Shown here: positions 21,001-39,000 of the stretch, one piece after another
Layout of the letters: every line of letters starts with the position of its first letter
How positions within the stretch are numbered: position 1 is the first letter of the stretch
Assembly: GCA_963514005.1 (NCBI GenBank)
Contig: OY740799.1
Location: 48,298,001 to 48,362,000, forward strand
Direction: 5' to 3'
DNA: 64,000 bases
DNA from: Raja brachyura
Lineage: Eukaryota
Position numbers: made by a program

Positions 21001-24000
21001 TGCTACACTTGTCACTTTACCTCTCCCCTCGACTCCATTCAAGGACCCAAGCAGTCGTTCCAGGTGCGACAGAGGTTCACCTGCATCTCCTCCAACATCA
21101 TCTATTGCATCCGCTGCACTAGATGTCAGCTGATCCACATCGGTGAAACCAAGCGCAGGTTTGGCAATCATTTTGCATTAACCAACCTGATCTCCCTGAG
21201 GCTCAGCACTTCAACTCCCCCCTCCCATTCCGTATCTGATCTCTCTGTCCTGGGCCTCCTCCATGGCGAGAGTGAGCAACACCAGAAATTGGAGGAACAG
21301 CACCTCATATTGCGCTTGGGCCGTCTGTATCCCGGTGGCCTGAACATTGAATTCTCCCAATTCCGTTAGCCCTTGCTGTCTCCTCCCCTTCCCAGCCTTC
21401 TTTCAGCCCTCGGACTCCTCCTCCTCCTCATTTTTCCTTTCTTCTCCCCGCCCCCCCCCCTCATCAGTCTAAAGAAAGGTTTCGGACCAAAATGTTACCC
21501 ATTCCCTTCTCCATAGCTGCTGCTGCACCCGCTGAGTTTCTCCAGCATTTTCATCTACCTCGATGTCTATTTCTATATTTTTTAATATATATATATATAT
21601 GTATATGTGTGTGTGTATATATATATATATTAAAAATTCACAGTGCTATGTTTATATATTCTGTTGTGCAAATAAGAATACCGTTATTTTGTCTGGGACA
21701 TATGACAATAAAAGACACTTGAAGGCAAGATGAACGGTGTACTGTGATGTTTTTTTTTGTCACGCCAAGTTGTATCTAGCCAGTTGGAATATTTCCACCA
21801 TTTTCTAGTTTTGTTTTACACTCCTAATAATTAGTATGAAAAGCATGCCAGTGTACATTAAGACAATGGTTTGCACTTAACATCACGGTGAAATAAGTGC
21901 AAGGATTCTGCTGATGGACACTAGAAGCTGGAGTAACTCAGCAGGACAGGCATCATGTGTGGAGAGAAGGAATGGGTAACGTTTTGGGTTGCAACCCTTC
22001 TTCAGACTACTGCCAGCTGCAGTGTTGGAATCTCAGCAATGATGCTTTGCAGGTACTCCTACTGCTGCGCTTGCGCAGACACCGCCCCTCCCACAGGCGG
22101 TACCGTATTGCGCCTGCGCAGGATCGCCCCGGCAGACAGGTGGGCCGGTACTGCGCATGCGCACGACCGCTCTGCACTTGGCCGCGCCACACATCTGCTG
22201 CCCGACGGTGCGGGGCCGAGAGCCGGGCCGGGCATGACGGAGGGAGGGTGGCCCTGCGTGCTGACGTCACGTGCTGCAGGCAGGCGAGGCTTGTTTCGAC
22301 TCGAGGCATACGGCGCGCGCTCCCTCCCTCCCTCTCTCCCTCCCCCTGTGGTGCGGGCGGGCGCCCGTGAAGCTGCGCGCGGGTGGGCGGTTGGTCTGTC
22401 TGTCCCGCTCCAACCCCGCCGTCATCAGCACGTCACCCAGCTCAGTCCGTCCGTCCGCCTCACGCACGGCGAAATGACGTGTGACAGGCGCAATGTGAGA
22501 CGGCGGCCAGAGGGAGGCGCTGTGGCAGCATGTCAAGAGTATTTCATTGTCATGTGTCCCAGATCCACCAATGACATTCTTACTTGAAAGTCACACAGCA
22601 TGGAAACAGGCCCTTCGGCTCAACTTGCCCAAACTGACCAACATGTCGCAGCTACACTAGTCCCACCTGACTGCGTTTGGTCCATGTCCCCCCTGTAAAT
22701 AAGCAATTTACAAACTCTAAGAGTGTTCAACACATTTTAATGATAGCACAAGGTATTACATACATCCTCAAGTACTGGCTACATTCTTCTAGTGAACCGT
22801 ACCCAGGAAGGGGAGGGCGTTATGATTGATGTTGACTAGGCGGGGTTAATGGTACTGAGGTAACTATGTTATTGGTTGCATGCAAAACCATCTACATCCT
22901 TCCCCTTCGAAAATAAAAAAAAAACAGACCGTTGTCACTACAACAGAATTAAACAGAATTAAACAGAATCGCCATAACGAACAGGTGGCTTGCTGATCCG
23001 GCCCGAGCGCGTACGGATGCCTCCCCCTTCCCCCGGAGGAGCAGAAAAAACAGGGGAACCCGAGACAGTAGGGGAACCAGGGAAGGGCGGTGGGGTTGGA
23101 GGAACAGCGGAGGGAGAACCGCGACCGGCAACAGGTGACACGCGCAGAGGGGAACCGGGTGCTCGATATGGGGAACGAGGCATGCAGGGAACGCTGGCTG
23201 GGACAGGAGCCGGCTGCTGGTATGAGAGCGGCGGGGCATAGGGGCCCGGGGCCTGCGGCTTCGGCTCATTAACCGCAAGCAGGTGTTGTCGGCTCCTACG
23301 GTAGATGGTTCCCTCATAGTCGACCAGATACGAACGAGGTGAGTCGGCCACCCCAACCACGGTAGCCAGACGGGAGTGACCACTGGCGGTTTGCAATCGA
23401 ACAACCTGTCCAGGCAACAGAGGATCGAGTGGTCTGCACGACCGATCGTGGGAACGCCGCTGGCTGTCATGTTTCTCTTGAATGCGCCTCTGCACGGAGG
23501 CAGGCTCCAGCACCCGAGGTTTCAGCTGGCGCTGGGCAATCGGGATGGTAGATCTGGTTGTTCTGGACATTAGACGCTGAGCAGGGGACCCCATGGCCGG
23601 ATCCCTGGAAACATTCCTGAGGTTCAGGAGATCCAAATACAAATCAGAGTTAGACAGTCTCGCCTGTTCCATCAGAAGCTTGGCGCTGCGGACGGCCCGT
23701 TCAGCAAGGCCGTTGCTCTGTGGGTACTCCGGGCTGCTGGTGAAATGCACAAAATTCCATTTGTCGGCAAAACTCTTGAACTCTCGGCTGGTAAACTGCC
23801 TGCCATTGTCAGTCTGCAGCCTCACAGGGGACCCAAACGTGGATAAGTGTTTCCGCAGCTTACGGATTAGCATCTCCGACGTGAGGGATGTCAGCAAATC
23901 CACCTCAAACCAGTTTGAGTACGAGTCGACCAGGACAAGGTAGTGGTTACCACGCCACTCGAAGATGTCGGCAGCCAGCGAGGACCAGGCCAAGGCAGGA

Positions 24001-36000: not shown

Positions 36001-39000
36001 ATACACATGGACGCACGCACACACGCACGCACACACGCACACACGCACACAACCATGAACCAATACGAAAACCATGTTGGATTTAAGCAAAGTTATACTT
36101 ATTCATACACGTCTACCCAGTTACAGGCAAATGGAAGGGCAATTCAGGTCATTTAACCAGTAGTTTTCCACGCGTTCCAAAAGACTAAGTGTAACCGTTG
36201 ATTAATTCTTGCTCCATATTTTACACTAGGAAAAATATTGCCTATAAAATGGTTTAACGCTATTTTTGTACAGGAGCCTTCCTCCATTACCTATCCGAAA
36301 ACATGATACATCAGACAACAGGGTTCTAATGTGGGAATTATGGCAAATTATTGGGAGCCAATGTTTTCATTCAGTGAGTTCCTTCGCCGAGCTCCGGTCA
36401 CCATCTCTAAATAAAGGTTTACCTGATAACATTGTAAGCAATAACCAGCTTCAATGTTTATACCATTCCGGTTAGTAAATTATATTAATGGGAAGCGGAC
36501 GTTTATGGGATGAACAATGAATCCCAGAAATATCCATACATATGGCTTTCTCTAAAACTATTCATAAACGGTTCTTTATTAGCTGCTGTGGCTACAATTG
36601 GCCATGATTTTGTGTATATTTTTTGAGGGTGCTTACCTCAACGTAAAAACAGTTCATAGTAAATTCATATCCCCAATATTGATATTCGTATTATTTTGGT
36701 AAGTAATACATAACATACAATGTTGTATATTAGAAAACATTGTGAATGTCTTCACGTTCTGCTTTCTGTAGATTACGCCGACGACGTTGGTCTTGAGGAT
36801 TATGAGGAAGACAAAGACAACATCTGGACAACCGCTTCTACATTCATTATCCTGTTCTTCCTGAGCATTTCCTACTGCGCTACCTTAACTCTGGTGAAGG
36901 TGAGTTCATTCCACTTACTTTTCCACCTGATTGAAGAGTACGGCACAATATATTTGAAGGTCCTGGCATCTTAATCACAGACTGCTAATACACTTTCATG
37001 CTCTCTTCCTCTCTTCACAGGTCAAGTGACGATTGAATGTTGAAAATCGCGTATTTTTCAGACCGGTCTATGGACGATATCCGTTGTACCCAAGGGAAAC
37101 GTTCCAATCTGAAGCGGACAATATAATAAGCAATAGTTCATTCTGTCGATCTGACTTGTTTGATATTGCCTTTAGTACAGCGTTAATGTATCAAACTATT
37201 TTAATCCTAATTCGAATATCATGTGAAAATAAATTGATTTCCTCAAACGGTATACATGTTTGTGTTTATATTTATCCTCTTTTCTATACATTCTCTTTTT
37301 CTTTACATGGGCCATATTCGTGTCATTCCGGCGTTGAATGCCGCTGTATAGAATGTCAGGATCGGTGTATGCATGAGATCGTAAACTTCATGTTAAATTC
37401 AGACAATCTATGCCTCCCATTATTCTAAAAAACTTCTATCGGGTCTCCCTTCAACCTCCAATACTCCAAAGAAAACAATCCATCTTTAGCTAACCACATA
37501 CTCAAGCATTGAAAATAGTTGCAGGAGGAGACCATTCGGCCCTACGAGCCAGCACCACCATTCATTCTGATCATGGCTGATCGTCCCAAATCAATAACTC
37601 GTGCCTGCTTTCTCCCCATATCCCTTGATTCCAATAGCCCATAGAGCTCTATCTAACTCTCTCTTAAACCCATCCAGTGATTTGTCCTCCACTGCCCTCT
37701 GTGGCAGGGAATTCCACAAATTCACAACTCTCTGGGTGAAAACGGTTTCTCCCACCTCAGACTTAAATGGCATCCCCTTTATTCTAAGACTGTGGCCCCT
37801 GGTTCTGGACTAGACCAAAATTGGGAACATTTTTCCTGCATCATACTTGTCCAGTCCTTTTATAATTTTATATGTTTCTACAAGATCCCCCCTCATTCTT
37901 CTAAACTCCAGTGAATGTAAGACTAGTCATTTCAATCTTTCCTCATATGACAGTCCCGTCATCCCAGGGATCAATCTCGTGAACCTCCGCTGCACTTCCT
38001 CAATCACAAGGATGTCCTTCCTCAAATTAGGAGACCAAAACTGTACAGAATGTTCCAGATGTGGTCTTACCAAAGCCCTATACAGGTGCAGTAGAACCTC
38101 TTTACTCCTATACTGAAATCCTCTTGTTATAAAGGCCAACATTGCATTAGCTCTCCTCACTGCCTGCTGTAACTGCACGCCAACTTTCAGTGACCGGTGT
38201 ACAAGGACACCCAGGTCTCGCTGCACCTCCCCCTTGCCTAACCTAACCCCATTGAGATAATAATATGCCCCCTTGTTTTTGCCGCTGAAGTGGATAACCT
38301 CACATTTATCTATATCATACTGCATGTGCCACGCACCTGCCCACTCACTCAACCTGTCCAGGTCACCCTGCAACCTTGTAGCATCCACCTCACAGTTCAC
38401 ACTGCAGCCCAGCTTTGTGTCATCCACTTCTTATAGCTAACAACTCGAACCCCTGCGGCATTTTAATAAACCTCTTCTGCATCTTCTCCAAAGCCTCCAC
38501 ATTTTTCCTTCGAAGGGATGACCTGACCTCCACACTATACTCCAAGTGCGGCCTAACCGAAGCCCTGTAAATAAAATGTAATGTAAATGCATGTGTAAAT
38601 ACATATCCGAAAATCCAAATGCGCGCGCAGATTCCGCATATGAGCAAATATCTATTTATTCCTTTTCTGCACAATTGTCCTCCCCTTCTTCTTTTATGTG
38701 GCGAGCACAGCGTAAAGTTGTTGGACAACTTGTTCTATTTGTTCTTCCGTTTGTGCCTGTCGAGTTGATTGCATTAGTCGAAACAGGGCGGACCACGTGA
38801 AGGTTGCAAACTTCCACCCCGGTCCTTCCCGTAATTCAGAGCTAATCTTTAATTCTCAGCTACCTGTTCTCGTGTGTAATTCAGTTGTTTTGACCACGTC
38901 GTGTTATGCTTTTAAAAGGTTATCTGTAATATGTTTTCTGTGAAATCACAAATAATAGCGGAAATACATAAAGCCCAACCGGGTTTGCTATGTTTGTTTC

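What the first reader, a model, noticed from the sequence alone, without database searches (positions are those of the whole stretch)
22040..37233. Intact but headless IgM 3' end facing away from a housekeeping CpG island
Seen: CH4, the secretory tail (NIS sequon, penultimate Cys), TM1, TM2, all splice sites and both poly(A) signals look intact. No leader, V, D, J, RSS or CH1-3 is recognisable in the 31 kb upstream. Between the island and ~30.75 kb there are essentially only transposons, and beyond it lies an unrelated opposite-strand gene. Known: cartilaginous fish IgH genes are compact V-D-D-J-C clusters. Inference: an orphon from a truncated duplication. It could be a recent pseudogene, a V-less CH4-TM or CH4-tailpiece transcript driven by the divergent CpG promoter, or an assembly join near 29-31 kb.
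Basis: partly seen in the sequence, partly recalled or inferred. Interest (0 to 1): 0.75.

Follow-up and report, generated by a model that had tools for sequence, protein, structure and literature searches.

The report
Solitary IgM tail-end gene remnant
A skate genome window holds only the last part of an antibody (IgM) heavy-chain gene, still readable but cut off from everything needed to make an antibody, which is most likely an ordinary recent relic of gene-family turnover.

Summary
On the + strand there is an uninterrupted IgM CH4 exon with secretory tailpiece (31435-31826), TM1 (36772-36899) and TM2 (37021-37029). The splice sites are phase-compatible and an AATAAA follows TM2. The best match is Amblyraja radiata IgM, 90% identity. 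tBLASTn, a full-length IgM profile, Pfam and RSS scans find no V, D, J, RSS or CH1-3 anywhere in the 64 kb, on either strand.

Two corrections. A young LINE fragment sits 7 nt after the CH4 stop, so the first AATAAA lies 461 nt downstream. Much of the CpG-rich stretch (23-24.5 kb) is a young LTR retroelement; only 22040-22500 is a free-standing island, and no gene could be tied to it.

Homology to IgM ends about 680 nt upstream of CH4, at a LINE fragment. The CH4 protein branch is no longer than those of its skate relatives and has only four unique residues. Intactness therefore fits a recent truncation and is weak evidence for function. No phase-1 leader exon was found.

Best reading: a recent, non-functional 3' relic of an IgM cluster. 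Not excluded: CH1-3 beyond the window, or a false assembly join. Interest is low.

The parts
22040..22500 (.). Free-standing CpG island; no gene assigned
   Evidence: GC 0.69, CpG o/e 0.96, 53 CpG. It has no copy elsewhere in the window. It is flanked by short repeats at 21913-22008 and 22532-22586. No Pfam or Rfam hit. NRF1-like, CRE-like and E-box motifs were read by eye; those names are recalled.
22691..25003 (-). Young LTR retroelement, which accounts for the CpG-rich 23-24.5 kb
   Evidence: Direct repeats of 209 nt at 22691-22899 and 24795-25003, 98% identical. The 565-aa ORF at 22962-24656 (-) carries Integrase_H2C2 and rve.
25496..29051 (+). LINE, endonuclease to RT 3' part, interrupted by a CpG-rich insert at about 26440-27280
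   Evidence: ORF translations resemble the 704-aa LINE ORF. 27432-29051 has up to 13 intra-window copies.
30064..30755 (-). 5'-truncated LINE fragment abutting the IgM-derived DNA; the upstream limit of the unit (boundary about ±30 nt)
   Evidence: About 90% identical to 59750-60198. The ORF at 30443-30838 (-) has a LINE C-terminal match, PF09004, E=3.6e-15.
30756..31434 (+). Non-repeated flank, inferred remnant of the CH3-CH4 intron
   Evidence: No intra-window repeat. The last ~30 nt before the acceptor translate to '…NKRHL…', as does the intron read-through of the batoid IgM record P0042. No CH3.
31435..31826 (+). IgM CH4 exon with 20-aa secretory tailpiece and stop; internal membrane-form donor G|GT at 31764/31765
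31834..32257 (-). Young LINE 3' fragment inserted in the secretory 3' UTR
   Evidence: 97.9-98.5% identical to copies at 43039-43465, 33382-33797 and 4909-5321.
32288..32303 (+). First two AATAAA sites after the CH4 stop; candidate secretory poly(A) signals
   Evidence: no + strand AATAAA or ATTAAA between 31827 and 32287.
33376..35600 (-). LINE with an open 704-aa RT ORF (33477-35588) inside the CH4-TM1 intron
   Evidence: RVT_1 E=1.3e-32; up to 14 intra-window copies.
36772..36899 (+). TM1 exon
   Evidence: AG at 36770-36771, donor GT at 36900, 12.4 bits on my simple donor matrix. tBLASTn to membrane IgM P0003 gave 85% identity over 46 aa, E=1.8e-18.
37021..37029 (+). TM2 exon: Val-Lys-stop
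   Evidence: AG at 37019-37020, then GTC AAG TGA. P0003 and P0023 also end in VK.
37228..37233 (+). AATAAA for the membrane transcript
37504..38430 (-). Older LINE fragment; the first repeat downstream of the unit
   Evidence: 77% identical to the young family; CpG o/e 0.29.
53689..54615 (-). Unrelated intronless GPCR ORF (GPR139-like)
   Evidence: 7tm_1 E=6.9e-18. Best named hit 75% identity, Rhinoraja longicauda. 2171 proteins at E<=1e-3 among 4768 candidates.

Best explanation
This is the 3' end of an elasmobranch IgM heavy-chain cluster: part of the CH3-CH4 intron, CH4 with its secretory tail, TM1, TM2 and the membrane poly(A) signal, about 6.7 kb from 30756 to 37503. It has been separated from its V-D-D-J-CH1-3 half. 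The break lies in the CH3-CH4 intron, about 680 nt upstream of CH4, where a LINE fragment begins. Everything further upstream for 31 kb is a mosaic of LINE and LTR elements plus one small CpG island.

Without a promoter-bearing V segment, a leader or an in-frame start codon it cannot make an antibody chain. It is a non-processed partial pseudogene (an 'orphon' if it lies away from intact clusters), produced by birth-and-death turnover of the multi-cluster IgM family. The exons are intact because the truncation is recent, not because they are used.

Shown: the exons, their phases, the missing 5' half, the repeat map, and the unaccelerated protein branch. Inferred: that the unit is not expressed, that the truncation is recent, and how the break arose.
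For: Identity of the unit. No V, CH1-3 or RSS in 64 kb on either strand.

The introns are kept (CH4-TM1 4.9 kb, TM1-TM2 121 nt), so it is not a retrocopy.

The upstream limit coincides with a LINE fragment. The stretch between the island and 30.75 kb holds an LTR element and LINEs.

No translatable start. The frame that runs into CH4 from the intron (31380-31434) has no Met. A scan of every + strand ATG in 1-31434 for a hydrophobic exon of 12-30 codons ending in a phase-1 donor gave 3 weak candidates, at 13501 (two alternative donors) and 29172. None looks like a signal peptide.

Recency. In a tree of 18 CH4 rows the window is sister to three skate CH4s (support 99/97). Its end branch is 0.044, against 0.055-0.070 from the same node to the others. 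Ten residues differ from all three skate relatives. At three of these (I38, V44, I117) the window carries the residue that is commonest among the other chondrichthyan CH4s, and at three more (G51, R55, V60) a residue that 4, 9 and 5 of them share. Only four (N22, G58, E66, A79) are unique. So few changes on its own branch make an intact 129-codon frame unremarkable under neutrality; that estimate is my own, not a tool result.

Young LINEs of 98-98.5% identity have landed inside the unit, one of them 7 nt after the stop. That shows recent, tolerated disruption.

Background from reviews (passages read). Clusters are V-D1-D2-J plus one C gene. Promoters appear only at V segments. The nurse shark has three Igμ pseudogenes beside 9-12 functional genes (PMC5192425; PMC4279169).
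Against: No retained exon has a stop, a frameshift or a broken splice site.

The window differs from the >=90% consensus at only 4 of 60 such columns, and the skate relatives share all four. The window's differences fall in less conserved columns than random (permutation P=0.0097). The branch is not lengthened. All of this is also what a gene still in use would show.

The species is unknown and no same-species IgM DNA was available. I therefore could not compute dN/dS or date the truncation. Nothing outside the window could be inspected, and expression could not be tested.

Non-transposon DNA of the unit keeps CpG (pooled o/e 0.87 against 0.53 for the rest). Other non-transposon parts of the window do so as well (25 of 128 windows at >=0.75, including 38.5-39.5 kb and 53-58.5 kb). 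This is therefore not diagnostic.
Confidence: 0.55

Rival explanations
1. The cluster is complete, but its CH3-CH4 intron has been inflated by nested transposons to more than 31 kb. CH1-3 and V-D-D-J would then lie beyond the left edge of the window.
For: The exons and splice sites are intact and the protein branch is not accelerated. The interval is mostly transposons, several of them young.
Against: 31.4 kb upstream holds no CH3. The interval also holds a non-repeated CpG island with promoter-like motifs, which is not what nested insertion produces. Cluster segments are described as closely spaced (PMC5192425 passages). That passage gives V-D spacing, not intron sizes, so this last point is weak.
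Confidence: 0.12
2. Assembly artefact: a false join or a collapsed repeat near 29-31 kb has attached the 3' end of a normal IgM cluster to unrelated DNA.
For: The break sits exactly at repeat DNA: LINE fragments, a 75-nt tandem repeat at 29225-29384 and a G22 run at 30236-30257. IgM clusters are multi-copy and hard to assemble.
Against: There is no N in 64 kb. The repeat at the junction is only about 90% identical to its one other copy in the window and under 0.7 kb long. That is a poor substrate for a long-read misjoin. No reads were available, so this is untested.
Confidence: 0.12
3. The unit is used. An exon not recognised here, a leader-type phase-1 exon inside or outside the window, splices to 31435. 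The product would be a V-less CH4-tailpiece or CH4-TM protein. This resembles the V-less secreted IgD of catfish, where a leader joins the C exons directly.
For: Every feature needed downstream of the acceptor is intact. Changes avoid conserved columns. V-less secreted IgD exists in catfish (PMC5192425 passage).
Against: No convincing phase-1 leader exon in 31.4 kb. The short ATG-plus-donor next to the CpG island is phase 0 and runs into a stop in CH4. A LINE lies between the stop codon and the first poly(A) signal. No protein model identical to this exon turned up in the two searches of the protein collection; the best near-length hit was 80% identical.
Confidence: 0.06
4. Origin by retro-mobilisation. 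An antisense read-through transcript running TM2 -> CH4 -> intronic minus-strand LINE tail was copied by LINE machinery to a new site, carrying the unspliced IgM 3' end with it.
For: On the minus strand the IgM block lies directly 5' of a minus-strand LINE 3' fragment (30064-30755). Sense introns would be retained in an antisense RNA, and they are retained.
Against: I saw no target-site duplication at 30064 or 37503. The piece is long, about 6.7 kb now and about 4.1 kb before the later LINE insertions. Both ends abut other transposons, so the junctions are unreadable.
Confidence: 0.07

Closest known systems
Functional elasmobranch IgM heavy-chain cluster (V-D1-D2-J-Cμ1-4-TM1-TM2), e.g. Amblyraja radiata LOC116974745 (P0002) and the membrane-form record P0003
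   Same: CH4 is 88-90% identical, with the same tailpiece (19 of 20 residues against the second C region of P0002). It has the same G|GTAAA membrane splice, a TM1 with the TTASTF…LVK core, and a VK end.
   Different: V, D, J, RSS and CH1-3 are absent from the whole window. A LINE sits in the secretory 3' UTR. Three residues of the TM core differ from the two skate records, which read YGAAVTL where the window's TM1 exon reads YCATLTL.
Igμ pseudogenes and orphons: the three pseudogenes of nurse shark, the Cμ pseudogenes in the catfish IGH2 and IGH3 loci
   Same: A member of the IgM family that cannot encode a heavy chain, sitting beside functional copies in a multi-copy family (review passages, PMC5192425).
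   Different: Here the defect is the loss of a whole 5' half, with no lesion in what remains. I found no description of a solitary CH4-TM unit in a skate in the listings of four searches or in the passages of three papers. That is not proof of absence. Most of the older shark Ig literature is outside the searchable library, and supplements were closed.
V-less secreted IgD of channel catfish
   Same: A precedent for an Ig C region expressed without a V domain (PMC5192425 passage).
   Different: That gene has a leader spliced to Cδ1. No leader was found here.
Processed Ig pseudogenes (retrocopies)
   Same: A solitary C-region fragment away from its V genes.
   Different: Both introns are retained, and no poly(A) tract follows the AATAAA at 37228.

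Membership tests
IgM Cμ4 domain with secretory tailpiece | C1-set Ig fold with the Cys…Trp…Cys core | tested here: met
   Pfam C1-set E=2.6e-20 over residues 8-96. C28, W42 and C89 are read.
IgM Cμ4 domain with secretory tailpiece | Tailpiece of about 20 residues with an N-X-S/T sequon and a penultimate Cys, contiguous with the domain exon | tested here: met
   [20 protein letters not shown] lies in the same exon. It aligns through residue 128 to IgM and IgA Fc-tailpiece chains, for example 8bpe_C at E=1.1e-44.
IgM Cμ4 domain with secretory tailpiece | Closest relatives are IgM heavy chains | tested here: met
   40 proteins at E<=1e-3 among 198 candidates. All the named ones are chondrichthyan Ig heavy chains or Ig-like domain proteins, except one labelled Aeromonas veronii, which I take for contamination.
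Membrane IgM 3' exons | Internal donor in CH4 (phase 1), a TM1 exon that completes the split codon, and a TM2 exon encoding VK-stop | tested here: met
   G|GT at 31764/31765, and TM1 starts with AT, giving GAT. TM1 ends in phase 0 at 36899. TM2 is GTC AAG TGA. TM1 matches P0003 at E=1.8e-18. The joined CH4-TM1-TM2 model was not used in any search.
Functional elasmobranch IgH cluster | Leader plus V segment with RSS, D segments and J upstream of the C exons | tested here: not met
   None in 64 kb. Sequence outside the window was not available.
Functional elasmobranch IgH cluster | CH1, CH2 and CH3 exons upstream of CH4 | tested here: not met
   Outside CH4 and TM1 the best tBLASTn hit was E=1.1 among the rows displayed (6 of 41 queries), and the best profile hit was E=0.36.
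Non-processed partial pseudogene / orphon | Lacks parts indispensable for a product | tested here: met
   No 5' half and no in-frame start.
Non-processed partial pseudogene / orphon | Not transcribed or spliced into a coding mRNA | not testable with these tools
   No RNA data. No identical protein model turned up in the two searches of the protein collection, which is weak evidence.
Non-processed partial pseudogene / orphon | Neutral evolution (dN/dS about 1) on its own branch | tested here: inconclusive
   No nucleotide sequence of relatives was on hand. The protein branch is not lengthened (0.044), and only four residues are unique. That is too few to separate recent neutrality from constraint.
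Non-processed partial pseudogene / orphon | Lies away from the intact clusters (the strict sense of 'orphon') | not testable with these tools
   Only 64 kb is visible.
Processed pseudogene | Introns removed, poly(A) tract, target-site duplication | tested here: not met
   Introns of 4.9 kb and 121 nt are present, and there is no A tract after 37233.

The most novel reading that the evidence does not exclude
The CH4-tailpiece/TM unit is kept by selection as a V-less module. It would either be spliced to a leader-type exon that lies outside the window or escaped my scan, giving a secreted, tailpiece-bearing CH4 or a membrane CH4 stub able to join IgM polymers or the Igα/β signalling partners. 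Or it would be retained as a donor for gene conversion among IgM clusters. The flawless exons and splice sites, the changes confined to variable columns, and a branch no longer than those of working genes do not exclude this.
Probability: 0.06. Interest if true: 0.6.

Novelty: new member of a known kind. Interest (0 to 1): 0.22.

Why it matters
If it is a relic, it is one more datum for birth-and-death turnover of the dispersed IgM clusters of cartilaginous fish. It also shows that young LINE activity coincides with a cluster breakpoint. That helps anyone counting 'IgM genes' in skate assemblies, because CH4- or TM-based counts would overcount. It would matter more only if transcripts showed the unit is spliced to something, or if the assembly proved wrong there. 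A misjoin would flag a problem in a hard-to-assemble immune locus.

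Tried and rejected
1. Processed retrocopy: rejected, because the introns are retained.

2. CpG island as the LTR of the neighbouring retroelement: rejected. The LTR pair is 22691-22899 and 24795-25003, and the island lies outside it.

3. Island as a small-RNA gene promoter: no Rfam family and no tRNA anywhere in the window.

4. CpG retention as a mark of recency or of an open Ig locus: dropped. Other non-transposon parts of the window keep CpG as well.

5. Leader-exon scan: 3 weak candidates, none credible.

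6. Species assignment through the GPCR: the best hit was 75% identical and the window's own protein was not listed, so the species stays open beyond 'a skate'.

7. Target-site duplications for the two young LINEs and for a possible transduced block: none seen by eye. This is inconclusive.

8. Literature. Five searches and passages of three papers gave background but no report of a solitary CH4-TM unit or of CpG or methylation features of shark Ig loci.

10. The joined CH4-TM1-TM2 model was not searched. The exons were searched separately.

Full report
WHAT IS THERE. The window has no N. On the + strand an acceptor AG at 31433-31434 opens an exon at 31435 in phase 1. The exon reads without interruption for 129 codons to TGA at 31824-31826. 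Pfam calls it a C1-set Ig domain (E=2.6e-20). Against solved structures, residues 5-128 align to the last Fc domain plus tailpiece of polymeric IgM and IgA (for example 8bpe_C, E=1.1e-44). In the protein collection, 40 proteins pass E<=1e-3 among 198 longer candidates. The best are Amblyraja radiata LOC116974745 (P0002, 90% identity, full coverage) and an unnamed membrane-form record, P0003 (90% over the 84% that precedes the tailpiece). The 20-residue tail carries an N-I-S sequon and a penultimate Cys.

The conserved internal donor G|GTAAA lies at 31764/31765. TM1 (36772-36899) starts with the two bases that complete that split codon and ends in phase 0 before GTGAGT. TM2 (37021-37029) reads Val-Lys-stop. 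AATAAA follows at 37228. I searched the exons one by one. The joined CH4-TM1-TM2 model was left out of all searches.

WHAT IS MISSING. tBLASTn of 41 proteins against both strands at E<=10 gave significant hits only in CH4 and TM1. In the rows I displayed (6 of 41 queries) the best hit elsewhere was E=1.1. A profile of 14 full-length IgM chains, run with filters off against 2013 six-frame ORFs of 20 aa or more, found CH4 at E=1.2e-72 and nothing better than E=0.36 elsewhere. Pfam on 298 of the 304 ORFs of 70 aa or more found an Ig domain in one ORF only; the six omitted ORFs lie in a CA-type repeat. RSS-like heptamer-spacer-nonamer matches are at chance level: 0 against 0.63 expected, and 1 against 0.95 expected.

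CORRECTIONS TO THE ANATOMY. First, the secretory 3' UTR is not pristine. A 424-nt, 5'-truncated, minus-strand LINE fragment (31834-32257) begins 7 nt after the stop. It is 97.9-98.5% identical to three other copies in the window, so it is a young insertion. The first + strand AATAAA sites, 32288 and 32298, lie just beyond it.

Second, the CH4-TM1 intron (4.9 kb) holds a LINE of the same family with an open 704-aa RT ORF, and a CA-type repeat.

Third, the CpG-rich zone is composite. Only 22040-22500 (GC 0.69, o/e 0.96) is free-standing. 22691-25003 is an LTR retroelement with 209-nt LTRs 98% identical and a gag-like plus integrase ORF. In the island I recognise NRF1-like, CRE-like and E-box motifs by eye (the names are recalled). 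No ORF, Pfam family, Rfam family or tRNA ties it to a gene, so 'housekeeping' is unverified.

THE UPSTREAM INTERVAL. From the island to CH4 I find these parts: the LTR element; a + strand LINE at 25496-29051 with a nested CpG-rich insert; a 75-nt tandem repeat at 29225-29384; further LINE pieces; and a minus-strand LINE 3' fragment at 30064 to about 30755. Only 35% of 22500-31434 is repeated within the window. The rest of the transposon assignments rest on ORF content, and 25004-25495 and 29452-29780 stay unclassified. The 680 nt between the last LINE fragment and CH4 are unique. Their final ~30 nt translate like the intron read-through seen in another batoid IgM record, P0042, so the acceptor region is native intron.

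Downstream, LINEs fill the space up to an intronless GPR139-like receptor ORF on the minus strand at 53689-54615. It belongs to a very large elasmobranch expansion. The best named hit is 75% identical, from Rhinoraja longicauda.

IS IT USED? Nothing in the window can start translation into CH4. The frame entering from the intron has no Met. The one short ATG-plus-donor I read beside the island is phase 0 and would meet a stop within five codons of CH4. A scan of every + strand ATG upstream, asking for a hydrophobic exon of 12-30 codons ending in a phase-1 donor, gave three weak candidates, none like a signal peptide. Reviews state that cluster promoters are found only at V segments (PMC5192425 passage).

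The retained exons are nonetheless flawless. The window departs from the >=90% consensus at 4 of 60 such columns, in an alignment of 44 CH4 segments; HSPs covering fewer than 91 query residues were dropped. The skate relatives share all four departures. Ten residues differ from all three skate relatives. At three of them the window has the residue that is commonest in the other chondrichthyan CH4s, and at three more a residue that a few of them share. Only four are unique. In a tree of 18 rows (27 of the 45 rows left out, mostly chimaera paralogues and fragments), the window is sister to the three skate CH4s with 99/97 support. Its end branch is 0.044, against 0.055-0.070 for the others from the same node.

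So there is no sign of relaxed constraint. But the copy's own branch is so short that an intact frame is expected even under neutrality; that estimate is mine. Intactness thus argues for recency rather than for function. CpG retention in the unit (pooled o/e 0.87) looked suggestive. It is shared by other non-transposon DNA in the window: 25 of 128 500-nt windows reach 0.75 or more. I do not use it.

VERDICT. The best explanation (0.55) is a recently truncated, non-processed 3' relic of an IgM cluster. It is an ordinary product of birth-and-death evolution in a dispersed multigene family, in a region with active LINEs. The window cannot show whether the 5' half was deleted in place or never copied. 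Still open are a transposon-inflated intron with CH1-3 beyond the window (0.12), a false assembly join at the repeat-rich junction (0.12), origin by LINE-mediated mobilisation of an antisense read-through RNA (0.07), and a used V-less module (0.06).

I found no report of a solitary CH4-TM unit in skates. This rests on four searches seen as listings and on passages of PMC5192425, PMC4279169 and PMC12227049. Much of the older shark Ig literature is outside the library and supplements were closed, so this is weak evidence of novelty. Partial and pseudogene Igμ copies as such are known.

NOT CHECKED. Anything outside the 64 kb, read support, expression, methylation, and nucleotide-level comparison with other IgM clusters.

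Noticed in passing
window 22691-25003: Young LTR retroelement. It has 209-nt LTRs 98% identical and a single 565-aa ORF with a gag-like N-terminus fused to integrase (Integrase_H2C2 + rve). No RT, RNase H or protease domain was found. It is probably a non-autonomous deletion derivative, and it is CpG-rich (o/e 0.77).
   Followed up: partly
window 53689-54615 (-), ORF open to 54960: Intronless GPR139-like GPCR ORF from a very large elasmobranch expansion (2171 proteins at E<=1e-3 among 4768 candidates). The best hit is 75% identical, and the last ~9% of the query is not covered by relatives, so its C-terminus may be aberrant.
   Followed up: partly
window 31834-32257, 33376-35600, 43039-43465, 4909-5321: One LINE family with copies 98-98.5% identical and at least one open 704-aa RT ORF. 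It looks recently or currently active in this genome.
   Followed up: partly
whole window, 500-nt windows: Sharp CpG contrast. LINE copies have o/e 0.29-0.39, while non-transposon stretches (the IgM unit, 38.5-39.5 kb, 53-58.5 kb) have 0.77-1.18 at only 37-55% GC. The window median is 0.49.
   Followed up: partly
window 56189-56366 and 57684-57801: Arrays of a 32-nt unit in opposite orientation flank about 1.3 kb of CpG-rich DNA (o/e above 1). This could be the ends of a DNA transposon or a large palindromic structure.
   Followed up: no
window 28662-28840: Near-perfect hairpin: 88-nt arms, 89% complementary, 3 nt between them, inside the + strand LINE.
   Followed up: no
window 30236-30257 and 35824-36051: A G22 homopolymer inside the LINE fragment next to the breakpoint, and a 230-nt CA-type repeat in the CH4-TM1 intron. 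Both could trouble sequencing or assembly.
   Followed up: no
protein P0024: A 232-aa IgM-like protein, 70% identical to the window's CH4, is filed in a public record under Aeromonas veronii on a 742-nt contig. It is almost certainly host (fish or shark) contamination of a bacterial assembly.
   Followed up: no
protein P0002: The Amblyraja radiata model LOC116974745 (992 aa) fuses two tandem IgM constant regions. It reads past the TM1 donor of the first into unrelated sequence, so it is an annotation merge of neighbouring clusters.
   Followed up: no
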